Shown here piece after piece: positions 13,091 through 43,242 of a stretch of 64,000 nucleotides of DNA (positions are counted from its first letter, which is position 1; each line of letters starts with the position of its first letter). The stretch lies in NCBI GenBank assembly GCA_964618315.1, contig CAZTWQ010000001.1:6877-70876 (forward strand). The letters run 5' to 3'. The stretch comes from an uncultured Methanosarcinales archaeon. Its GTDB lineage: Archaea; Nanobdellota; Nanobdellia; Woesearchaeales; JACPBV01. Under the pieces are notes generated by a model. The model did no database searches. It had not been told where the DNA came from and saw only the letters and a program-made list of their open reading frames with translations. The position numbers and the translations under genes were made by a program.

Positions 13091-14137
13091 TTATCCTGAA
13101 TAATCATATTTATTCATTTTAAATCCAGAATTAACCCTATGTCTTATTGTGCTTGGAGGTATATTAATTAGGGGTGATATTTTATAAGGAGTTAATCCTT
13201 TTTCTGTTAATTCTTTTATTCTTATATTCTGATTATTTATCTTTTCAAATCTTTTTTGATAATGATTTAAAGCATTCGAAAGTTTTTTTCTTTTTTCAGG
13301 ATGAGTAAATCCAATTAGTTTACTATATCTAAGGATTGATTTATTGCGGCCTATTGTGATAGTTGGTTCAGAAATCCTAGATTGAATTCCTAAGTCTTCC
13401 AATAGGGATTTGATGAATAGGAGCTCTTCCTCGCACTTTTGTGATCCACTAACAGAAAACATGCCTTTTTTTAGATTGAAATGGACACAACCTTCATCAT
13501 CAAAGAAAGCCTTTAGATATATTTTTTTGTATTCATCATTAGTTATTATGATAGTTTTATCAAAATTAAGAATATCTAAATGCATTAATTTGGAAGAGTA
13601 AATAAGTTGAGTTACTCCTGAACCTACTTTTGATCTTGTTGGTTTTAATCCATAAACAAAGCCCATATCATTTTCAAATTCACTTAATAATTCTTGATTT
13701 TTGTTTATGTAACTAATTACATAAGAGTTATTTTTACTAACATAACCATCAAATATTGAATGTGCATAGATCCTTACTTTTTCTTTGGTTATTTTATCAA
13801 ATCCTTTTTTAAGGGGTTTAGGATAGATAGGAAATTGAACTTTCCCCTTAATGCAATCTTTTATGAAATTTATAGAATGGCCTGTAATTTTTCTAACTTT
13901 TCTTAGAGATTTAACTTTGTTATAAATCTTACATAGATTGTCAACTTTTTGGTTTTTCTTAATTCCTGCTATTTCACTATTAGATTTTATATGAATTCCA
14001 CCCTTGATTAATCTTTTCTTAATGCCTTCTCTTGAAAGTCCAAACTTTTTTGCTAAATTAGTTAATGTTATTCTTTTATCTAAGACATATATTTTTTCAA
14101 TTTCTTTAATTATTTCTTCTGATATTTTTTTTATCAT
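13091..14137 (-). CDS. LAGLIDADG-type homing-endonuclease-like protein with N- and C-terminal HTH domains
   Basis: Two LAGLIDADG-like motifs (HSIFDGYVS and KAFFDDEGCV), an N-terminal HTH (LTNLAKKFGLSREGIKKRL) and a C-terminal HTH (GLTPYKISPLINIPPSTIRHRV). Confidence 0.6.
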   Translation of the reverse strand: MIKKISEEIIKEIEKIYVLDKRITLTNLAKKFGLSREGIKKRLIKGGIHIKSNSEIAGIKKNQKVDNLCKIYNKVKSLRKVRKITGHSINFIKDCIKGKVQFPIYPKPLKKGFDKITKEKVRIYAHSIFDGYVSKNNSYVISYINKNQELLSEFENDMGFVYGLKPTRSKVGSGVTQLIYSSKLMHLDILNFDKTIIITNDEYKKIYLKAFFDDEGCVHFNLKKGMFSVSGSQKCEEELLFIKSLLEDLGIQSRISEPTITIGRNKSILRYSKLIGFTHPEKRKKLSNALNHYQKRFEKINNQNIRIKELTEKGLTPYKISPLINIPPSTIRHRVNSGFKMNKYDYSG

Positions 14138-14299
14138 CTTAAATCACCTCCATTTAAGATTTCTTTTAATTTATTGGAAGAAATCAGGGGGGTTGAAAAA
14201 AGATACCTGAAAGCTAAACTCCATAATTGATTTTTGTGTCTGAAAGATCAAAAATCATTATTTAGGAGTTTTGCATGGTCTCTTTTTTATTAAGAGTGT

Positions 14300-14430
14300 A
14301 GAATTACTCATTTATATATCCTGCGGGGGTGTCTGGCAAGTGGCAAGTGGGTGCCTAAAACTACTGTAACCATTAAATTTAGGCTCTAGAAGGCTTCTCG
14401 CACTTGCCAAAATTTTGGCAAGTGGGATGA
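14300..14430 (+). other. conserved upstream module A: TATA-like box followed by an array of GGCAAGTG motifs (two direct, one inverted, one direct); possible divergent ncRNA or operator array
   Basis: TTTATATAT at 14311; TGGCAAGTGGCAAGTGG at 14334..14350; CACTTGCCAAAATTTTGGCAAGTGGG at 14401..14426. Roughly 80% identical to the module at 41930..42055. Confidence 0.4.
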
Positions 14431-14440
14431 TTAACTTGAG

Positions 14441-15121
14441 TTATTTCTTCTTAGGTTCCTTTACAGAACCTCTTAAATACCAAACTAGAAGGTACACAAA
14501 TGGTGTGTCTGCTAACGCTAAAACTACTTTTAGAAGATAGTATGGAATTATTAATGTGAAAAGGTATGCCACATTGAACTTAGGGCTTGTGTTTAGGGTC
14601 TGTGGGAGCCAAGGTATGTAGTATAATGCTATGAACATGAACAGGACTGAATCCAGGAATTGTGATACTATGGTTGATGCGTTGTTTCTTAGCCATAGCC
14701 ATTTTCCTTTTGTCTTTTGTTTCCAGAAGTTGAATGCCCATACATCATGGAGCTGGCTGACTATAAATGCTAGTATAGATGCTATGAAGAACCTTAAAGA
14801 CATTCCAAAAACGGGGGTGTATTGTTCTGCCTGAACATAGCTTCTTGCAGCAAAAGGCAGTTTTACAGCTATTGCTGTAATTATTAAAACAAATAACATA
14901 CAGATAAAGCCAACCCATACGAACATCTTTGTTTTTTCTTTTCCATGGACTTCTTCAACTGCATCTGTTATCAAGAATGTTATGGGGTAAGCAAATATTC
15001 CCACACTTACCTGAATAACCCAGAATTGTGTGATCTTGCCACCTATCAGATTAGCAGCTATCAGTGAAGCTACAAATAGACCAAGTAGAAGATTTGTTTT
15101 AGATTTTAAGTCCCACTTCAT
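14441..15121 (-). CDS. yhhQ: queuosine/archaeosine precursor transporter (YhhQ/VUT family, DUF165)
   Basis: AYPITFLITDAVEEVHG matches the YhhQ signature (FPxTFxxTDxxxEVYG); 226 aa, polytopic. Confidence 0.7.
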   Translation of the reverse strand: MKWDLKSKTNLLLGLFVASLIAANLIGGKITQFWVIQVSVGIFAYPITFLITDAVEEVHGKEKTKMFVWVGFICMLFVLIITAIAVKLPFAARSYVQAEQYTPVFGMSLRFFIASILAFIVSQLHDVWAFNFWKQKTKGKWLWLRNNASTIVSQFLDSVLFMFIALYYIPWLPQTLNTSPKFNVAYLFTLIIPYYLLKVVLALADTPFVYLLVWYLRGSVKEPKKK

Positions 15122-17926: not shown

Positions 17927-18089
17927 GGCTGCGTTGAAAATCTCACTACGTTCGGGTTGCCATCGGGTTCGCTTCTTGAAGTTGGTATGGATAACTGACA
18001 TTCCCCGTAAGGGACCTCCCCCTTGTCAGTTTGAAGTGATTATCTATCAAGCTCACGAATTGATGGCGACCTATATTTTCAACGCAGCC
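17927..18089. mobile_element. MITE-like element E1 (163 bp, about 15-bp TIR GGCTGCGTTGAAAAT, degenerate TSD)
   Basis: Its core is about 90% identical to E2 (36713..36875). Perfect terminal inverted repeats GGCTGCGTTGAAAAT / ATTTTCAACGCAGCC. Flanks GAATAAG / GGATAAG look like a decayed TSD. Confidence 0.45.
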
Positions 18090-18166
18090 ATGGATAAGAA
18101 GAAACTTTTTATTTATACCTTATAAACAACACAATGTTTATAAATGTCAATAAAACCTTTTAAGAA

Positions 18167-31539: not shown

Positions 31540-32316
31540 ATGAAAACGCAAAATTTAACTCAAAAATTGAACTTTTATGAATTGATTGGAGTTATTTTGG
31601 GGGATGGATGTATAAAATACTATCCTTCACATAAAGTATATACCCTAGAAATAACTGGAGATGCAAAAGATGATCAAGAATATTTTAGTAAATTATCGAA
31701 GTTAATTACAAGTATAACTAATAAAACTCCAACTGTTAGAATAAGCATAGATAAGAAAAAGCGAGCCTTGAGATTAGAATTACACAGTAAAAAGTTTTTG
31801 GAGTTTTTATTGAACGATGTAGGAATAACTAATAAAAAGAAATCATTCAATGCAGAAATCCCTAAGAAGTACCTAGAGTGGAAATATAGTAAACATATTA
31901 TTAGAGGCATATTTGAAACAGATGGTTCACTTTATTTTTCAAAATCAAAAAAGATTAAATACACTTCTTATCCAAGGATAGAAATTAAGACATCTAGTAA
32001 AAAATTAGCTTTGCAAATATTTGAATTGCTCAAACAAAAAGCTTTTAAAGTACAAAAGAGACCTAGCAAAACAGATAAGACAATTAGAGTCTATCTTAGT
32101 GGATCTGAAATGCTTAATAAATGGTTAAAAGAAATCGGTTTTTCAAGTATGAAAAAATACAGTAAATATTTGTTTTGGAAAAAATTTGGTTATTATATTC
32201 CAAAAACACCTTATAAGAAAAGAATGATTCTCATAAGGGAGCATGGCCAAGTGGCTAAGGCGTCCGCCTGCAGAGCGGATATTCGGGGGTTCAAATCCCT
32301 CTGCTCCCTCTTATAA
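31540..32316 (+). CDS. LAGLIDADG-type homing-endonuclease-like protein (paralog 2); the ORF reads through tRNA-Cys
   Basis: Motifs IGVILGDGCI and IRGIFETDGSL. The last 27 codons or so are encoded by the tRNA-Cys sequence, so the true C-terminus is uncertain. Confidence 0.5.
   Translation: MKTQNLTQKLNFYELIGVILGDGCIKYYPSHKVYTLEITGDAKDDQEYFSKLSKLITSITNKTPTVRISIDKKKRALRLELHSKKFLEFLLNDVGITNKKKSFNAEIPKKYLEWKYSKHIIRGIFETDGSLYFSKSKKIKYTSYPRIEIKTSSKKLALQIFELLKQKAFKVQKRPSKTDKTIRVYLSGSEMLNKWLKEIGFSSMKKYSKYLFWKKFGYYIPKTPYKKRMILIREHGQVAKASACRADIRGFKSLCSLL
32237..32308 (+). tRNA. tRNA-Cys (GCA)
   Basis: Hand-folded cloverleaf: acceptor GGGAGCA/TGCTCCC, anticodon stem TCCGC/GCGGA with loop CTGCAGA, T-loop TTCAAAT; 72 nt with no encoded CCA; immediately upstream of cysS. 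Confidence 0.8.
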
Positions 32317-32348: not shown

Positions 32349-33746
32349 GTGATAAATATGTTAAAACTATACAATACACTAGGCAGAAAGAAAGACGTTT
32401 TTGAGCCTATCAATAAGAAAGAAGTAGGGATGTATAGTTGCGGGCCTACTGTTTATAACTTTGCCCACATAGGTAATTTTAGGGCTTATATAGTTGCAGA
32501 TCTTCTGAAAAAATATCTTAAGTTTAAAGGATTTAATGTAAAGCATGTAATGAATATTACAGATGTTGATGATAAGACAATAAAGGGCTCTATACAAGAG
32601 AAGATTTCTTTGAAAAAGTATACTAAGAAATATACTGATGCATTTCTTAGTGATCTTAAAACATTAAATATCTCAGAAGCAGATATATTCCCAAGGGCAA
32701 CAGATCATATCAATGAGATGGTTGCAATGATTCAGAAGCTTAGCGACAAGGGACTTGCATATAAAGGAGAAGACGGGTCATGGTATTATAGTGTTTCTAA
32801 GTTTAAGAACTATGGAAAGCTTTCAAGACTTAAGTTTGAAGGGTTGAAAGAAGGTGCAAGAGTAAAACAAGATGATTATGATAAAGATCAGGCTCAGGAT
32901 TTTGCTTTGTGGAAAGGTTATTCTAAAGAAGATGGTGATGTTTTTTGGGAAACTTCGCTGGGTAAAGGTCGTCCTGGGTGGCATATTGAATGCAGTGCAA
33001 TGAATACTAAGTATTTAGGTAATGGTTTTGATATACATACTGGTGGAATTGACCTAGTGTTTCCACACCATGAAAATGAGATAGCTCAAGCAGAAGGATG
33101 TACTGAAAGCCCTTATGTAAACTATTGGGTGCATAATGAGCATCTACTTGTTGATGGGAAGAAAATGAGCAAGTCACTAGGTAATTTTTATACTCTTCGT
33201 GATCTGCTTGATAAAGGGTATAGTGCAGTTGCTATAAGATATCTTTTGTTGAGTACGCATTATAGGCAGCAAGCTAATTTTACATTTAAGGCTCTTGAGG
33301 GAGCTAAAGGTGCTGTTGATAAGCTCAATAATTTTATATTTGTCTTAGGGGGCATGGATTGTGATGAAGATGTTGGCAATATAGATGAACTTATCAAAGA
33401 GACCAGAGCTGCTTTTGAGATGAAGATGGACGATGATTTGAATATTTCTGGTGGGTTAGCTGTTATCTTTGACTTCATGAGTGATGTCAACAAGCTTCGC
33501 CTGAGCAAGGACGATGCTTCAAAGGTAATTTCATTTATGAAAGAAGTTGATGCTATATTGGGTGTTATGGATTTTAAAAAGAATGATGAGAATATTCCTA
33601 AAGATATAGAGAGTCTGATCAAGTCGAGAGAAGACGCCAGAAAGAATAAAGATTTTGATAAGGCGGATAAGATAAGGGATGATCTAAAGGAAAAAGGGAT
33701 TGAATTGATAGATACTCCTGAAGGAGTCCGGTGGAAGAAGGTTTAA
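32349..33746 (+). CDS. cysS: cysteinyl-tRNA synthetase
   Basis: HIGN and KMSKS class-I motifs and a CysRS zinc-site context; 465 aa. Confidence 0.9.
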
Positions 33747-36712: not shown

Positions 36713-36875
36713 GGCTTAGTAGAAAATCTCCCGTTGGTCGGGTTGCCATCGGGTTCGCTTCTTGAAGTTGGTATAGATAACTGACATTCCCCGTAAGGGA
36801 CTTCCCCCTTGCCAGTTAGATGTATCTATTTAAGAAGCTCATAAATTGATGGCAACCTATATTTTCTACTAAGCC
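36713..36875. mobile_element. MITE-like element E2 (163 bp) with 19-bp TIR GGCTTAGTAGAAAA... and a perfect 9-bp TSD GAGAAAAAG
   Basis: TSD copies at 36704..36712 and 36876..36884; termini GGCTTAGTAGAAAAT / ATTTTCTACTAAGCC; internal sequence homologous to E1. Confidence 0.55.
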
Positions 36876-36920
36876 GAGAAAAAGAGAATATTAATAAACA
36901 TAAGTTGCTTACTAGTTTCT

Positions 36921-40252: not shown

Positions 40253-40744
40253 TTAGAACTTTTGTAGTGCTTGTTCATAAGCTTTTGATAAACTAAGTGG
40301 GTCGTTGTTTGCTGGCCAAGAAGGCATCCTGACTACTCTTTCGTCTGGAAAACCATATTTATTATCTTCTATTAATACATAATCTTTAGGGTTTCCTAGT
40401 TCACCTAGATTTTTTCTTACATTATCCCCAACAAATGAATATATTTTTCCTGTTCTAACTAATCTGCCCTGCTCAAGGTCTGCATATTCAAAATGATGCT
40501 CCATAGTTTCATGATTAATTATGCCAAGGATAATCCGATCAAAAAGAGTCAATACAGATCCAACATCCAGAAACTCCACTAAACCTGCAGTGCCTTGCTC
40601 CATCCCAGCCATAGTCCATAGAGTGGTTGAATCAAAATCATATCTTGCCCTAAGCAATACTTCCATGAATTCAGGATGAGCATTCCCTGGAGGTAGCTCG
40701 TCAATAAGAACACCTTCAAGATCAAAAACAATTCCCAGTGGCAT
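40253..40744 (-). CDS. HAD-superfamily phosphatase (NIF/FCP1-like)
   Basis: Motif I at the N-terminus (IVFDLEGVLID) and a late DNKYGFPDERVV motif; locally higher GC. Confidence 0.5.
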   Translation of the reverse strand: MPLGIVFDLEGVLIDELPPGNAHPEFMEVLLRARYDFDSTTLWTMAGMEQGTAGLVEFLDVGSVLTLFDRIILGIINHETMEHHFEYADLEQGRLVRTGKIYSFVGDNVRKNLGELGNPKDYVLIEDNKYGFPDERVVRMPSWPANNDPLSLSKAYEQALQKF

Positions 40745-40852: not shown

Positions 40853-40998
40853 GGGGCTGTAGCTCAGCCTGGGAGAGCACTAGACTGAAGTTCCTATGAT
40901 CTGCAGAGGCTTTTGCCGATGAAGAGCAGAGATCTAGGTGTCCTGGGAAGTCGCAATACCATGTGCGTCTTGGGAAAATTCAAATTCCGGCAGCCCCA
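40853..40998 (+). tRNA. tRNA-Phe (GAA) with a canonical 41-nt intron at position 37/38 and a predicted second intron of about 31 nt in the T-arm
   Basis: 5' half GGGGCTGTAGCTCAGCCTGGGAGAGCACTAGACTGAAG; exon 2 A-TCTAG-GTGTC-CTGGG; exon 3 TTCAAATTCCGG-CAGCCCC-A. The mature length would be 74 nt with a standard cloverleaf. Confidence 0.7.
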
Positions 40999-41765
40999 CT
41001 CTTTTTTAAACCTTTTATTATTTTAGGGGGTCTTCCTTTTTTACTTGTGATTGTTCCACTTTTTAGATATTCTTCATACTTATTAAGATGTCTTTGGTTT
41101 CTAAAACCAATTAATTTCATCCATAATTGAAGGTTTTGACGACCACTTAATCTTAATCTGCTTTCAATCCAAGTTTTTCCAAACCTTTTATCAAAATTTC
41201 TATCTTCTGGAATAAAGTCAACATTAAAACCTAATTTTTCTAGAAATTTTGAGAATAGTATGATTATTTTTTTATCCACTAAACTTAAAGATATTACTGG
41301 GTAATGTGGATATTTCTTTCTATTTCTATAGAGCATTAAAGAAAAATCTGTATCTGCTAATCCCTTAAGGGTGTGTAGAAGATAATCTTGGTTATTGAGT
41401 ATCCAATTTGGAATTTTAATATTCCTACTATGATGTTTATAGTATCCCATTCCCTTAATGAAATTGAATAATCCTAGTGAACTGAAGTTAATTTCTATTA
41501 AATTCTTATATTTCCTTTGGATAATTTTAACATTTATGTTAAAAAGGTTTTTGATTAAATTTTTTACATAGTGAAAATAATCATAATCTAATCTAGAATC
41601 TCCTGATACAGATATGATATTATATCTAGTATTAAAGCTAACATGCCCATCTCCTGCCAGTATACCAATAAACTCTGCTAATTTTTTAGATGGTCCCTTA
41701 GGTAAAACTAAGCCTCGTTTTCTATCTACATGACTAAATTCTATTTTTGATATATCAAATTCCAT
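40980..41765 (-). CDS. LAGLIDADG-type homing-endonuclease-like protein (paralog 3)
   Basis: Motifs IGILAGDGHVS and LKGLADTDFS; the 3' end overlaps the 3' end of tRNA-Phe on the opposite strand by about 19 nt. Confidence 0.55.
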   Translation of the reverse strand: MEFDISKIEFSHVDRKRGLVLPKGPSKKLAEFIGILAGDGHVSFNTRYNIISVSGDSRLDYDYFHYVKNLIKNLFNINVKIIQRKYKNLIEINFSSLGLFNFIKGMGYYKHHSRNIKIPNWILNNQDYLLHTLKGLADTDFSLMLYRNRKKYPHYPVISLSLVDKKIIILFSKFLEKLGFNVDFIPEDRNFDKRFGKTWIESRLRLSGRQNLQLWMKLIGFRNQRHLNKYEEYLKSGTITSKKGRPPKIIKGLKKSGAAGI

Positions 41766-41929
41766 CTTAAATCACCTCCATTAAGATTTCTTTTCATTTA
41801 TTGAAAGAAATTCTTGGAGATTTGAAAAAAGAGGTCAAAGAGCGAAACTCTGTAATTGATTTTCTAGAAAGTGGAAAATCATTATTTAACAGTTTTGCGT
41901 GAACTCTTTTTTATTAAGAATGTAAAAAT

Positions 41930-42055
41930 ACTAGTTTATATATCTGGCGGAGGTGGTTGGCAAGTGGCAAGTGGGGGTGCTAAAACAGCTAATTCATTAG
42001 AATTTAAATGATAGAAGGCTTCTCGTCACTTGCCAAAATGTTGGCAAGTGAGATT
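41930..42055 (+). other. conserved upstream module B (paralog of module A): TATA-like box plus a GGCAAGTG motif array
   Basis: TTTATATAT at 41936; TTGGCAAGTGGCAAGTGGG at 41957..41975; CACTTGCCAAAATGTTGGCAAGTG at 42027..42050. The whole 41766..42070 stretch is homologous to 14138..14440. Confidence 0.4.
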
Positions 42056-42160
42056 AATGAATTATTATCCCAAAATAACAGCAAGATTTATAGACCTTAA
42101 CGCATTTCCATTATAAATAAACGGCAAGGAATTAAAATAAAAATTTAATATAAGGCTAAC

Positions 42161-42421
42161 ATGACAATTCTATCATCATTAGCAACGGTCTTTGGAGTAG
42201 TTAATGGATTTGCTAATTTTCCCCAGATCTATAAGATTTTTAAGAAAAAAAGTGCAAAAGATATAGCTGCAATTACTTATATGATATTAACTGTTGGTAC
42301 TGTTGTTTGGCTTCTCTATGGGTTTGAGATAAGAAGTATCCCTGTAATTGTAATGAATGGTCTAGCACTTATTGAATTTATATTGATTCTAATTGGATGT
42401 TATATGTATGGTAAGGGTTAA
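42161..42421 (+). CDS. SemiSWEET/PQ-loop family small transporter
   Basis: 86 aa with 3 TM segments and the PQ-loop motif FANFPQIYKIFKKKSAKDI. Confidence 0.6.
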   Translation: MTILSSLATVFGVVNGFANFPQIYKIFKKKSAKDIAAITYMILTVGTVVWLLYGFEIRSIPVIVMNGLALIEFILILIGCYMYGKG

Positions 42422-42482
42422 GGGAGTTTAAATTTGTATTGTAATTACAGTTTTGCTGCCCTTCATTATTTTGAATCTTAAT

Positions 42483-43076
42483 TTAATCTAAAATTAGTTG
42501 AACCTGTTCTGCAGATTGTTGTTTAGAATTCAAATACTGGCGGCATTTAGCTAAAACATAATCTGAAGAAAAATAATGTGATTTCTGAAAAGAATCTCTA
42601 AAAGCTCTGGCTTCGTCAGGTTGAATTACATGATCCTGATCTAAGTCCATCCTACCTGCTAACAGACTATCCATACATTCTTGAGTGGTTTGCTGTCCCT
42701 CTCTGATTTTGATAACATATCTATCCCCTATCTGATATAATTCATTATCTTCAACTTTGCCAAGAGGTTTTGGCATTTTTTCTGAACTGACCATAATTCC
42801 AAAAAGAACTGATCTTAGATCACCCCTAGTATATTGTGTTTCTAATAAGCCAAATGATTTTATAATCTTGCCCCTTAAATCAGCATATATTTTGGCAAAA
42901 TGCACATATGGATCTTCTCCTTGATTAATGTAAGGTACGAGCCTAGGATTTAGAGAGCTAGAGCTCATAACAACATCTAAGGGTTGAGTTTGTGGAGTCT
43001 GCTGACTTTCTGCGATTGCAGGACTTGCAGCTGCCATACTTGCCATCAAGGCCCTTGTTGCTAAGTAATTCGTCAT
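42483..43076 (-). CDS. hypothetical secreted protein with atypical composition
   Basis: N-terminal signal-peptide-like MASMAAASPAIA, a Gln/Thr-rich region and no recognisable motif; higher GC. Confidence 0.4.
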   Translation of the reverse strand: MTNYLATRALMASMAAASPAIAESQQTPQTQPLDVVMSSSSLNPRLVPYINQGEDPYVHFAKIYADLRGKIIKSFGLLETQYTRGDLRSVLFGIMVSSEKMPKPLGKVEDNELYQIGDRYVIKIREGQQTTQECMDSLLAGRMDLDQDHVIQPDEARAFRDSFQKSHYFSSDYVLAKCRQYLNSKQQSAEQVQLILD

Positions 43077-43242
43077 TTTTTAGTTTATTAGTTGATATAG
43101 ATATAAGGCAAACATCACCTATTTATAAATCTTACTATTTATTACTACCTATAAGTGACAATTTATTAATTTAGAAAACATAATTATAGTAAACGAAATA
43201 TCATAATATCAATAATCTTTTTGATCACTACATTCTTAAGAA

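What the first reader, a model, noticed from the sequence alone, without database searches (positions are those of the whole stretch)
14138..14440. About 320-bp conserved non-coding module upstream of two LAGLIDADG paralogs, carrying a GGCAAGTG motif array and its own TATA box
14138..14440 and 41766..42070 are roughly 80% identical across the whole spacer, which is much more than neutral intergenic DNA would allow. Each contains TTTATATAT oriented away from the LAGLIDADG gene, then TGGCAAGTGGCAAGTGG about 25 nt downstream, then CACTTGCC-AAAAT(G/T)TT-GGCAAGTG. Two readings are possible: a divergently transcribed small RNA of about 100 nt whose 5' GGCAAGUG pairs with the downstream CACUUGCC, or an operator array of four binding sites for the adjacent HTH-LAGLIDADG protein.
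Basis: seen in the sequence. Interest (0 to 1): 0.65.

Follow-up and report, generated by a model that had tools for sequence, protein, structure and literature searches.

The report
Shared promoter-leader cassette of archaeal homing-endonuclease genes
The conserved 300-bp spacer is a portable control region, made of a promoter, a folded mRNA leader and an upstream repeat array, that very different homing-endonuclease genes share across tiny DPANN archaea; it is not primarily a small-RNA gene.

Summary
Window 14138-14440 and 41766-42070 are about 83% identical. Similarity starts exactly at the ATG of two minus-strand LAGLIDADG genes whose proteins are almost unrelated.

The module has two parts.

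(1) TATA to ATG (14138-14310; 41766-41934) is a structured 5' leader of the LAGLIDADG mRNA. A long hairpin starts at the predicted transcription start. Across 38 loci, 94.9% of its cells are paired and 9 pairs show compensatory changes. A second hairpin next to or covering the Shine-Dalgarno sequence follows. About 40 metagenomic loci carry this leader in front of ORFs with a mean 12% amino-acid identity, most of them LAGLIDADG. In close relatives the ORF alone is swapped, between the leader and the 3' end of an intron-containing tRNA gene.

(2) Beyond the TATA lies an array of an 8-mer: GGCAAGTG here, and GGCGAGTG, GTCCAGTG or GACCAGTG in other lineages. The first copy sits 14-16 nt from the TATA. 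The same array precedes xerA recombinase, DinD-like and other genes. The inverted arm is lost in an orthologous locus, and the middle has no conserved fold. I read the array as protein-binding regulatory sites, possibly for XerA.

The small-RNA reading is poorly supported. The operator reading is partly right, but the adjacent protein is an unlikely binder.

The parts
13091..14137 (-). LAGLIDADG ORF A (348 aa, N-terminal HTH-like region plus LAGLIDADG_3 domain); cargo of copy A
   Evidence: ORF list. Pfam LAGLIDADG_3 35.8 bits against a cut-off of 22.5; HTH_24 is weak. An ortholog with 76% aa identity sits in the syntenic locus L126.
14144..14151 (-). Shine-Dalgarno sequence GGAGGTGA, 6 nt before the ATG of ORF A
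   Evidence: Read from the sequence. Conserved in 38 aligned leaders.
14158..14192 (-). Leader hairpin 2 (GAUUUCUU/AAGAAAUC) flanked by a C-run that can pair with the SD; proposed translational control element
   Evidence: Read from the sequence. The predicted probability that the SD is paired is 0.79, but shuffled controls give 0.82, so this is not significant for this copy. Type X relatives have a contiguous 8-12 bp stem, CUCCAAAGU/ACUUUGGAG, that includes the SD.
14196..14288 (-). Long 5'-terminal leader hairpin (AAAAAAGAUACC...GGUCUCUUUUUU closing stem); its first base is the predicted start of the LAGLIDADG mRNA
   Evidence: nhmmer hit 14196-14288, 65 bits. RNAalifold predicts 29 pairs, 9 of them with double changes. 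94.9% of cells are paired and 0 of 500 shuffles reach the observed covariation; slid controls give 38-58%.
14311..14318 (.). TATA box TTTATATA, shared by copy A; probably used towards the LAGLIDADG gene and possibly in both directions
   Evidence: Read from the sequence. Fixed spacing to the hairpin base on one side and to the first 8-mer on the other in all loci. Leaderless genes in the window place the transcription start at the 23rd nt after the TATA.
14319..14334 (.). Conserved block next to the TATA (TCCTGCGG, CCTCACGC in relatives) plus a G/C-rich spacer; purine-rich on the minus strand, BRE-like for the LAGLIDADG direction
   Evidence: Alignments of 19 and 42 loci.
14335..14349 (+). Two overlapping direct copies of the 8-mer GGCAAGTG (promoter-proximal sites)
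   Evidence: The 8-mer differs by lineage (GGCGAGTG, GTCCAGTG, GACCAGTG, GTCTAGTG) but stays 14-16 nt from the TATA.
14350..14400 (.). Array middle (AAAAC...CTGTAA...AAATTT...TAGAAGGCTTCTC boxes); no conserved fold
   Evidence: One search finds no consensus pairs here. The region is not alignable in the orthologous locus L126.
14401..14424 (.). Perfect 24-bp palindrome CACTTGCCAAAATTTTGGCAAGTG: an inverted and a direct 8-mer (9-bp arms, 6-bp spacer)
   Evidence: In 20 arrays the spacer between the 9-bp arms is 6 bp in 11, 7 in 6, 8 in 2 and 9 in 1.
40853..40998 (+). tRNA-Phe(GAA) gene with two insertions; the far boundary of cassette B (ORF B ends inside its 3' end)
   Evidence: Infernal tRNA model, 28.6 bits, E = 0.0003, with insertions of 44 and 40 nt. 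Sequence read.
40980..41765 (-). LAGLIDADG ORF B (261 aa, two-domain enzyme); cargo of copy B
   Evidence: ORF list. Pfam LAGLIDADG_2 24.6 bits. AlphaFold model with pLDDT 91. Foldseek PDB hits to intein homing-endonuclease domains, I-Tsp061I, PI-PfuI and I-DmoI, E down to 7e-11. The acidic residues of both motifs (D39, D138/D140) are invariant in 35 homologs.
41772..41779 (-). Shine-Dalgarno sequence GGAGGTGA of ORF B
   Evidence: Read from the sequence; alignment.
41783..41819 (-). Leader hairpin 2 of copy B, with CUCCA able to pair with UGGAG of the SD
   Evidence: Read from the sequence. Predicted probability that the SD is paired is 0.97 against 0.79 in shuffles.
41825..41912 (-). Long 5'-terminal leader hairpin of copy B
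   Evidence: nhmmer hit 41825-41912, 69 bits.
41935..41942 (.). TATA box TTTATATA of copy B
   Evidence: Read from the sequence. The 23rd nt on the minus strand is 41912, the hairpin base.
41959..41973 (+). Two overlapping direct 8-mers GGCAAGTG of copy B
42027..42050 (.). Near-palindrome CACTTGCCAAAATGTTGGCAAGTG of copy B; similarity to the orthologous locus L130 stops at its outer edge

Best explanation
The module is a portable expression and control platform for free-standing homing-endonuclease genes of DPANN (Nanoarchaeota/Woesearchaeota) archaea.

One TATA box (14311-14318; 41935-41942) starts the LAGLIDADG mRNA about 23 nt away on the minus strand. The roughly 150-nt 5' UTR folds into two elements:
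- A long, sequence-conserved hairpin lies at the very 5' end. Its 3' arm ends in a U5-6 run. It is inferred to stabilise the mRNA, to attenuate transcription, or to serve as a protein handle.
- A second hairpin adjoins or includes the Shine-Dalgarno sequence. It is inferred to throttle translation of a potentially toxic nuclease.

Because the leader is nearly identical in all cassettes, it also gives homology for exchanging the ORF. Different endonuclease ORFs are found between the same leader and the same intron-containing tRNA gene.

Upstream of the promoter, on the side away from the gene, sits an array of a lineage-specific 8-mer (NNNNAGTG; GGCAAGTG here): two proximal copies at about -47 to -61, and a distal pair about 70-85 bp further out. 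I infer these are binding sites for a trans-acting DNA-binding protein that co-evolves with them. The factor would control this promoter together with those of xerA and other DNA-manipulating genes. XerA itself is the best candidate.

Shown: the conservation, the covariation of the long hairpin, the ORF swapping, the lineage-specific motif with fixed spacing, and the association with xerA promoters. Inferred: the transcription start, the effect of the hairpins, and protein binding to the 8-mers.
For: Leader:
- 42 unique loci share it.
- In alignment A2, RNAalifold predicts 29 pairs, 9 with compensatory double changes.
- 94.9% of cells are paired against 38-58% when the partner is slid, and 0 of 500 shuffles reach the observed covariation.
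- A protein-anchored, independently found relative (L213) has a diverged leader with several further compensatory changes: ACUUCC/GGAGU and AAUUCUU/AAGAAAUU.
- Apical loops vary from 8 to about 40 nt and include an extra inserted stem. This fits a folded strand and not a double-stranded DNA site.
- The hairpin base lies 23 nt from the TATA, and 23 nt is the TATA-to-start distance of leaderless genes in this window.
- In the SD hairpin, type X leaders have a contiguous 8-12 bp stem that includes the SD, with P of about 0.04 or less against shuffles in each of about 20 loci. U.G wobbles (UUCC/GGAG) on the mRNA strand occur in L180, L186 and L193.

Cargo:
- 39 ORFs behind the leader have a mean 12% aa identity. 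Pfam assigns 22 to LAGLIDADG_3, 3 to LAGLIDADG_2, 3 to the WhiA type, 2 to Hom_end, 1 to HNH_repeat and 1 to 23S_rRNA_IVP.
- ORF B has the homing-endonuclease fold.

ORF swapping:
- L147 and L131 are 88% identical in the flank and leader and about 69% identical beyond the ORF, but their ORFs are not alignable.

tRNA boundary:
- At least 9 of 31 cassettes abut a convergent intron-containing tRNA gene.

Array:
- The 8-mer differs by lineage at constant spacing.
- All four copies changed together in the orthologous locus L130.
- In XerA loci the same TATA is followed after 23 nt by an SD and ATG, so it serves the divergent gene there too.
- xerA homologs from 5 of 6 sampled lineages carry their lineage's 8-mer at the same distance from their TATA.
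Against: - No transcript data exist. The start site and even the direction of promoter use are inferred.
- The TATA reads TTTAWATA on the plus strand in nearly all loci, which is the canonical orientation for transcription away from the LAGLIDADG gene. The invariant AGTG lies at the predicted plus-strand start. A divergent transcript therefore cannot be excluded.
- In the long hairpin, A.C mismatches on the mRNA strand (45 cells, 31 of them at one conserved position) outnumber G.U pairs (9 cells). These would be G.U on the other strand.
- For the two window copies, SD sequestration is not statistically distinguishable from shuffled controls.
- The leader anchor used for retrieval fixed 19 nt of helix 2, so invariance of that arm is partly by construction.
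- Nothing shows that a protein binds the 8-mers. The spacer of the palindrome varies from 6 to 9 bp, which is awkward for a dimeric binder.
- Some LAGLIDADG homologs (L209, L211, and window 31540-32316) do without the module.
Confidence: 0.6

Rival explanations
1. The 8-mer array is a binding and recombination site of the XerA-type tyrosine recombinase. Two direct accessory copies lie next to the promoter, and an inverted pair with a 6-bp spacer forms a core, as in the internal resolution sites of Tn4430/Tn5401 or a multi-copy dif-like site. XerA would both autoregulate and recombine or rearrange DNA at these sites. This would make the cassettes mobilisable and the arrays hot spots for indels. 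It refines the best explanation rather than excluding it.
For: - 3 of 17 array loci found by an array-only search lie directly upstream of XerA-type genes (NCBIfam NF040815, 212-221 bits).
- xerA homologs of 50-71% identity from other lineages carry CACTTGCC x4 (L215), CACTGGTC x2 plus one inverted copy (L216/L217), CACTGGAC plus one inverted copy (L218) or CACTGGTC (L219), 14-16 nt from their TATA.
- The motif is uniform within a lineage and differs between lineages.
- The spacer is 6 bp in 11 of 20 palindromes, and the arms extend to 13 bp in L026.
- Similarity between window B and L130 ends at the outer edge of the array. There the window carries two extra genes (42051-43240), after which homology to L130 seems to resume. 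The resumption is my own reading of the printed L130 sequence, not a BLAST hit.
Against: - The arrays next to xerA in L215, L216 and L218 have no inverted pair with a short spacer, so they have no obvious crossover core.
- The spacer varies from 6 to 9 bp.
- Most GTCCAGTG cassettes have a single copy.
- The known archaeal dif is unique per genome, has 11-bp arms, and is not next to xerA (PMC2958812).
- Synteny runs straight through the array in window A versus L126 and in L147 versus L131/L204.
- The resemblance to the Tn4430/Tn5401 resolution sites is recalled from my own knowledge and was not tested.
Confidence: 0.3
2. The TATA box drives a divergent small RNA of about 85-92 nt on the plus strand (about 14341-14430). 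It starts at the second GGCAAGUG, and its ends pair (GGCAAGUG with CACUUGCC) or form a 3' hairpin. The LAGLIDADG genes merely sit next to a multi-copy sRNA gene.
For: - TTTAWATA is in canonical orientation for the plus strand in nearly all loci.
- The invariant AGTG coincides with the predicted plus-strand start (T at -1, G at +1), 22-24 nt from the TATA.
- The array length is constant: 82-86 nt from the first to the last 8-mer.
- G.U pairs occur on the plus strand in the 3' hairpins of L162 and L189 (GGAC/GUCU).
- L126 has a hairpin plus a T5 run after the last 8-mer.
- Folding z-scores of the plus strand are about -2.8.
Against: - There is no consensus structure apart from the palindrome required by the search.
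- The inverted arm is absent in the orthologous L126 and in L145, L194 and most GTCCAGTG loci.
- The middle is not conserved between orthologs.
- No consistent oligo-T terminator follows. In several GTCCAGTG loci a T6 run comes right after the first 8-mer.
- The minus strand folds about as well, with z-scores of -2.9 and -4.1.
- There is no Rfam match.
- Genome-wide identity of the 8-mer is not expected for a cis stem.
- L027 keeps the array without a TATA.
Confidence: 0.15
3. The GGCAAGTG array is an operator bound by the protein encoded next to it (the HTH-LAGLIDADG protein), giving autoregulation.
For: ORF A has an N-terminal HTH-like region, and many cargo ORFs carry HTH domains. The array lies just upstream of the promoter.
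Against: - ORF B has no detected HTH and is almost unrelated to ORF A, yet has the same array.
- The same array precedes XerA, DinD/Bro-N-like, four-helix-bundle and 37-aa genes.
- The 8-mer follows the host lineage and not the cargo protein: closely related flanks with swapped ORFs keep the same 8-mer.
Confidence: 0.07
4. The long inverted repeat in 14196-14288 acts as DNA (a cruciform or a palindromic protein site) or as an antisense plus-strand RNA, and not as the mRNA leader.
For: Watson-Crick covariation is the same on both strands. At the conserved position col 42/115, 31 of 38 sequences have A.C on the mRNA strand, which would be a G.U pair on the plus strand.
Against: - The apical loop varies from 8 to about 40 nt with an inserted extra stem, which is incompatible with a fixed-geometry double-stranded DNA site.
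- No promoter is available for a plus-strand transcript of this segment, because conservation stops at the ATG.
- The hairpin begins at the predicted minus-strand start.
- The neighbouring SD hairpin shows U.G wobbles on the mRNA strand.
Confidence: 0.08

Closest known systems
RBS-sequestering leader hairpins of phage T4-type homing-endonuclease genes (I-TevI, I-TevII, I-TevIII, segB, mobE; review PMC2988022)
   Same: A selfish endonuclease gene is preceded by a stable RNA hairpin that includes or abuts the Shine-Dalgarno sequence. The presumed purpose is to keep nuclease translation low or timed. The arrangement applies to free-standing genes as well as intron-encoded ones.
   Different: There is no sequence relationship. 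The host is archaeal. Here one leader sequence is shared by dozens of unrelated ORFs across genera, and it contains an additional long 5'-terminal hairpin. No second promoter that would start inside the hairpin and relieve repression was found. For the two window copies the sequestration is only predicted.
Free-standing homing endonucleases with intronless, trans or collaborative homing next to intron-containing genes (described for T-even phages and cyanophages; PMC2988022)
   Same: Free-standing endonuclease genes sit directly beside a conserved host gene that carries introns, here tRNA genes. The ORFs are exchanged while the flanks stay.
   Different: The partners here are archaeal tRNA genes with short insertions, presumably of the bulge-helix-bulge type, rather than group I introns. 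No cleavage site is known and homing has not been shown.
Archaeal XerA/dif chromosome-resolution system (PMC2958812)
   Same: The neighbouring recombinases are of the XerA type. The palindrome has inverted arms and most often a 6-bp spacer.
   Different: dif is unique per genome, has 11-bp arms, and is not next to xerA. Here there are several arrays per genome, the arms are 8-9 bp, the spacer ranges from 6 to 9 bp, extra direct copies are present, and the array is fused to a promoter.
Internal resolution sites of Tn4430/Tn5401 (TnpI tyrosine recombinase) and res sites of Tn3-family resolvases (from my own knowledge, not checked in the paper library)
   Same: A roughly 100-bp region lies next to the recombinase gene and overlaps its promoter. 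It contains a short recognition motif in two direct and two inverted copies.
   Different: Here the same array also precedes many non-recombinase genes. Several xerA-linked arrays lack an inverted pair. No transposon context was found.
Integrons in Archaea (attI/attC with IntI; PMC9668308)
   Same: A tyrosine recombinase is divergently placed from a structured repeat region. The gene content next to it is variable.
   Different: The recombinases score below the integron-integrase model, which they match in two separate stretches. The cassettes have their own promoters and leaders and are not in tandem arrays. The repeat layout is direct, direct, inverted, direct, which is not the R''-L''...L'-R' layout of attC.

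Membership tests
Any described RNA family (Rfam 15) | Match to a covariance model at or near the gathering score | tested here: not met
   The whole window at gathering threshold returns only tRNA-Cys. Window 14080-14480 in E-value mode returns only chance-level hits of at most 22 bits with E of at least 0.33.
RBS-sequestering translational-control hairpin of homing-endonuclease genes | The Shine-Dalgarno sequence lies inside a stable stem of the mRNA leader | tested here: inconclusive
   Met in type X relatives, which have a contiguous 8-12 bp stem CUCCAAAGU/ACUUUGGAG with P of about 0.04 or less against shuffles. For window copies A and B the pairing is interrupted. The predicted probability that the SD is paired is 0.79 and 0.97, against 0.82 and 0.79 in shuffles.
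RBS-sequestering translational-control hairpin of homing-endonuclease genes | An alternative promoter or condition that opens the hairpin | not tested
   No second TATA-like box is evident by eye between the shared TATA and the ATG. There are no expression data.
Structured cis-regulatory mRNA leader | Conserved base pairs with compensatory changes across independent sequences | tested here: met
   Of 30 pairs tested, 9 have double changes (36 cells against 8.3 expected). 0 of 500 shuffles reach the observed covariation, and slid controls give 38-58% paired. The protein-anchored relative L213 adds further compensatory changes.
LAGLIDADG homing endonuclease (the cargo genes) | LAGLIDADG motifs with conserved acidic residues and the alpha-beta-beta-alpha-beta-beta-alpha fold | tested here: met
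   ORF A hits Pfam LAGLIDADG_3 above its cut-off. The ORF B model has pLDDT 91, with Foldseek hits to I-Tsp061I, PI-PfuI, I-DmoI and intein endonuclease domains. G38-D39-G40 and D138/D140 are invariant in 35 homologs. Nuclease activity cannot be tested here.
Archaeal small non-coding RNA gene (reading 1) | Own promoter, defined 3' end or terminator, and conserved secondary structure | tested here: not met
   A promoter-like TATA is present. No consistent oligo-T tract follows. There is no consensus structure in the middle. The inverted arm is lost in an ortholog.
Archaeal dif site (XerA) | A single site per genome; 11-bp imperfect inverted arms with a fixed 6-bp spacer; not adjacent to xerA (PMC2958812) | tested here: not met
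   There are 2 arrays in 64 kb and 3-5 per MAG. The arms are 8-9 bp and the spacer ranges from 6 to 9 bp. The arrays lie adjacent to xerA.
Integron (attI/attC plus IntI) | IntI-specific additional domain; tandem promoterless cassettes each ending in an attC with R''-L''/L'-R' symmetry | tested here: not met
   The recombinases score 164-199 bits on TIGR02249 against a cut-off of 265, in two stretches. The cassettes carry their own TATA and leader. The motif layout is direct, direct, inverted, direct.
Recombinase-binding array of the Tn4430/Tn5401 resolution-site type | A short recombinase recognition motif in direct and inverted copies next to, and regulating, the recombinase gene | tested here: inconclusive
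   Arrays lie at the xerA promoter in 5 of 6 sampled lineages plus L012, L017 and L020. Binding, crossover and regulation cannot be tested with these tools.

The most novel reading that the evidence does not exclude
DPANN archaea may carry a family of mobile endonuclease cassettes that home to the 3' flank of tRNA genes and spread together with the short introns that interrupt those tRNAs. This would be collaborative homing applied to archaeal tRNA introns. Every cassette would use one conserved, previously undescribed leader RNA, which serves both as a riboregulator and as the homology arm for swapping the nuclease ORF. Its promoter would be wired, through lineage-specific XerA-recognised 8-mer arrays, to the chromosome-resolution or cell-cycle programme, so that cutting happens only when a sister copy is available for repair.
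Probability: 0.15. Interest if true: 0.85.

Novelty: new variant of a known kind. Interest (0 to 1): 0.62.

Why it matters
- It defines a widespread, apparently undescribed structured 5' leader in archaea that have almost no characterised regulatory RNAs. The leader is more conserved than the proteins it controls.
- It shows that unrelated homing-endonuclease ORFs are exchanged between a fixed leader and a fixed tRNA flank. This gives a concrete handle on how such genes persist and diversify in very small genomes.
- It links these selfish genes to xerA through a shared, lineage-specific promoter-proximal motif. That points to a testable regulon or recombination system.
- It places the cassettes next to multiply interrupted tRNA genes. 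This makes the long-standing question of how non-canonical archaeal tRNA introns spread directly testable.

Tried and rejected
- Recent segmental duplication. Rejected because the ORFs are unrelated and the module is conserved across MAGs and metagenomes.
- Viral origin. A scan of viral contigs for the palindrome gave 98 hits, but none matched the element profile beyond the hairpin.
- tRNA-like or cloverleaf fold, C/D-box or H/ACA sRNA for the array. No boxes or arms were found by inspection, and there is no Rfam hit.
- Replication origin or ORB elements. GTCCAGTGG resembles the ORB core TCCAGTGGA, which I recall from my own knowledge. Rejected because the GGAAA half and a correctly placed G-string are missing, there are too many copies per genome, and the A/T-rich spacer is only 6-9 bp. 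Five arrays do lie about 1.5 kb from cdc6, but on its 3' side.
- Transposon end. No second end or matching 8-mer was found beyond the ORFs.
- att duplication of the tRNA 3' end at the array. Not found.
- Thermodynamic test of SD sequestration. It does not discriminate, because shuffled pyrimidine-rich leaders also pair with the SD (0.86 against 0.75).
- ARAGORN, with or without its intron option, misses most of the interrupted tRNA genes.
- A literature search for the motif strings found nothing.
Full report
**The observation**

Similarity begins exactly at the start codons of two minus-strand ORFs (13091-14137 and 40980-41765). It ends about ten bases after the last GGCAAGTG. The 8-mer occurs eight times in the 64-kb window against 1.04 expected, and all eight copies lie in these two places.

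The ORFs are LAGLIDADG proteins. ORF A hits Pfam LAGLIDADG_3 above its cut-off. The ORF B model has pLDDT 91 and a homing-endonuclease fold. The two proteins share only 31% identity over 36 residues. The non-coding DNA is therefore far better conserved than the genes it precedes.

The window comes from an uncultured DPANN archaeon in a JGI metagenome sample, 3300024259. It has about 33% G+C.

**Distribution**

I ran two collection scans.
- A scan of species-representative genomes for the array pattern returned 17 true copies in four Nanoarchaeota/Woesearchaeota genomes assembled from metagenomes (MAGs), 3-5 per MAG, plus two contigs filed under other taxa.
- A scan of metagenomes for a 19-nt anchor inside the other half of the module returned 83 hits. 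About 50 of them carry the same TATA-to-ATG region, and 42 of those are unique.

A viral-contig scan found nothing beyond chance hairpins. The window itself holds only the two copies.

**Part 1: the segment between the TATA and the ATG is a structured mRNA leader**

I aligned 38 loci in mRNA sense. The segment has three features: a long hairpin, a short linker, and a second hairpin followed by GGAGGTGA, 5-8 nt and the ATG.

RNAalifold predicts 29 pairs in the long hairpin, nine of them with compensatory double changes. On a 30-pair structure, 94.9% of cells are standard pairs, against 38-58% when the partner is slid. None of 500 shuffles reaches the observed covariation. Helix 1 lies outside the retrieval anchor, and 7 of its 10 pairs show double changes.

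A relative found independently through protein homology (L213, 39% aa identity to ORF B) has a diverged leader with several further compensatory changes. The apical loop varies from 8 to about 40 nt and sometimes contains an extra stem. This fits a folded strand and not a double-stranded DNA site.

Leaderless genes in this window place the transcription start at the 23rd nt after the 8-bp TATA. Applied to the minus strand of the module, that rule gives 14288 and 41912, which are the first bases of the hairpin. The sequence next to the TATA on that side is conserved and purine-rich on the minus strand, as expected of a BRE. The plus-strand side upstream of the TATA is not conserved.

In XerA loci that share the array, the same TATA is followed after 23 nt by GGAGGTGATT-ATG. 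There the TATA box clearly serves the divergent gene.

The second hairpin contains the Shine-Dalgarno sequence in a contiguous 8-12 bp stem in the commonest leader type. U.G wobbles occur on the mRNA strand in three loci. In the two window copies the pairing is interrupted, and the thermodynamic test does not discriminate.

The 3' arm of the long hairpin ends in an invariant U5-6 run. I note this as a possible attenuator. That is inference only.

Translational control by hairpins that sequester the ribosome-binding site is well documented for phage homing-endonuclease genes (PMC2988022).

**The cargo is exchangeable**

The 39 ORFs behind the leader have a mean 12% aa identity. Pfam assigns 22 to LAGLIDADG_3, with smaller numbers to LAGLIDADG_2, the WhiA type and Hom_end. 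One ORF is a homing-endonuclease-associated repeat protein, one is a 23S-rRNA-IVS four-helix-bundle protein, and several are HTH-only proteins.

L147 and L131 are 88% identical in the flanking gene, the 8-mer, the promoter and the leader, and about 69% identical beyond the ORF. Their ORFs have different lengths and cannot be aligned. L204 holds the L131-type ORF at the same place. The replaced segment runs from the ATG to the 3' end of a tRNA gene.

At least 9 of 31 cassettes abut a convergent tRNA gene that carries insertions. In the window, ORF B ends inside tRNA-Phe (40853-40998), which has insertions of 44 and 40 nt. The pairing of tRNA-Phe with this LAGLIDADG family recurs at 39-45% aa identity, with or without the leader.

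**Part 2: the array**

The architecture is a TATA, 14-16 nt, one or two direct copies of an 8-mer, about 50 nt, and often an inverted copy and a further direct copy. The distance from the first to the last copy is 82-86 nt.

The 8-mer differs by lineage: GGCAAGTG, GGCGAGTG, GTCCAGTG, GTCTAGTG, GACTAGTG or GACCAGTG. Only AGTG is invariant. In L130, the ortholog of cassette B, all four copies changed at the same position.

Several results argue against a cis RNA stem.
- L126, the ortholog of cassette A, has lost the inverted arm, and its middle cannot be aligned. The TATA and the direct copies remain.
- RNAalifold on 20 arrays finds only the palindrome that the search demanded.
- No terminator is consistently present.
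- Most GTCCAGTG loci have one or two direct copies only.
- The motif is uniform across unrelated cassettes of a lineage.

I therefore read the 8-mers as sites for a trans-acting factor.

The genes found next to arrays in the array-anchored sample are:
- LAGLIDADG genes (8 of 17 loci);
- XerA-type recombinase genes (3);
- a conserved 37-39-aa ORF in a syntenic locus near cdc6 (5);
- DinD/Bro-N-like genes (1, plus one about 650 nt away at a locus already counted under the 37-aa ORF) and a four-helix-bundle gene (1).

As a test, I fetched xerA homologs of 44-71% identity from other lineages. Five of six carry their lineage's 8-mer at the same distance from their TATA, in tandem and/or with a distal copy. 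xerA is thus a constant member of this promoter class, and XerA is the obvious candidate reader.

The arrays are neither canonical dif sites (PMC2958812) nor integron sites (PMC9668308). Several xerA-linked arrays lack an inverted pair. A recombination role is therefore possible but less supported than a regulatory one.

A divergent plus-strand transcript cannot be excluded. The TATA reads TTTAWATA on that strand, and AGTG sits at the predicted start.

**Verdict**

The larger part is a conserved, structured 5' leader and promoter that acts as a common platform for exchangeable homing-endonuclease ORFs in DPANN archaea. The motif array is an upstream, lineage-specific recognition array shared with xerA and other genes.

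The small-RNA reading is weak. The operator reading is partly right, but it names the wrong binder.

All mechanistic steps remain inferred. This covers the start site, the effect of the hairpins and the binding of a protein to the 8-mers.

Noticed in passing
window 40853-40998 (+): A tRNA-Phe(GAA) gene is interrupted by two insertions, 44 nt in the anticodon loop and 40 nt in the T arm. It is missed by ARAGORN and falls just under the Rfam gathering score (28.6 against 29 bits). LAGLIDADG ORF B ends inside its 3' end on the other strand.
   Followed up: yes
L127, L130, L145, L147, L163, L180, L194, L204, L209, L213 (regions just after the LAGLIDADG stop codons): Convergent, intron-containing tRNA genes abut the 3' end of the endonuclease ORF in at least 9 of 31 leader-bearing cassettes. 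The same is seen in homologs of ORF B at 39-45% identity, always with tRNA-Phe. This suggests targeting of tRNA genes and possibly co-spread with tRNA introns.
   Followed up: partly
window 31540-32316 (+), with tRNA-Cys 32237-32310 (+) and CysRS 32349-33746 (+): A third LAGLIDADG ORF (258 aa; motifs LIGVILGDGCI and GIFETDGSLYF) has neither the conserved leader nor the array. Its reading frame runs through the tRNA-Cys gene on the same strand, directly upstream of the cysteinyl-tRNA synthetase gene.
   Followed up: partly
window 17927-18090 and 36713-36876 (+): Two copies (83% identical) of a roughly 165-nt intergenic element fold into a long rod (MFE -65.9 kcal/mol, z = -4.4). The terminal stem shows compensatory differences between the copies (GCGTTG/CAACGC against TAGTAG/CTACTA). 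There is no Rfam match, so this is a candidate undescribed structured RNA.
   Followed up: partly
L009, L011, L013, L019, L026 (about 140-270 nt from the array, opposite strand): A conserved 37-39-aa ORF (MVDLRKETIQDLFYKQVRKLTLSKAQSFDLQFSDAWIN) has an SD and shows synonymous variation in five MAGs. It is divergent from an array, in a syntenic locus ordered LMW phosphatase, ORF, array, acylphosphatase, cdc6. It has its own structured leader (AAGGCAGG...CCUGCCUU plus an ACACACCCCCUUGUGU hairpin). It may be a small regulator.
   Followed up: partly
L212 1900-3260: A 388-aa LAGLIDADG ORF (30% identical to ORF B) lies between a tRNA-like 5' piece (GCCCCCATGGTATAGCCTGGATAGCAT) and a tRNA-Arg(GCG)-like 3' piece, all on the same strand, on a 1.37-Mb contig. 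It may be an endonuclease gene inside a tRNA intron, or two tRNA fragments.
   Followed up: no
window 42051-43240 compared with L130: Relative to the orthologous locus L130, the window carries two extra genes directly at the outer edge of array B: a SemiSWEET gene at 42161-42421 and a 197-aa ORF at 42483-43076. By my own reading of the printed L130 sequence, not by a BLAST hit, homology seems to resume in the C-terminus of the 726-aa membrane protein. The window also has an extra 163-aa ORF (40253-40744) between the SSB-like gene and tRNA-Phe.
   Followed up: partly
L016 500-690 and L018 6810-6883: The array pattern also hit a Cytophagaceae contig, where it is a 41-bp tandem repeat containing GGCAAGTG and CACTTGCC, and a Dehalococcoidia chromosome. 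Both look unrelated to the archaeal element.
   Followed up: no
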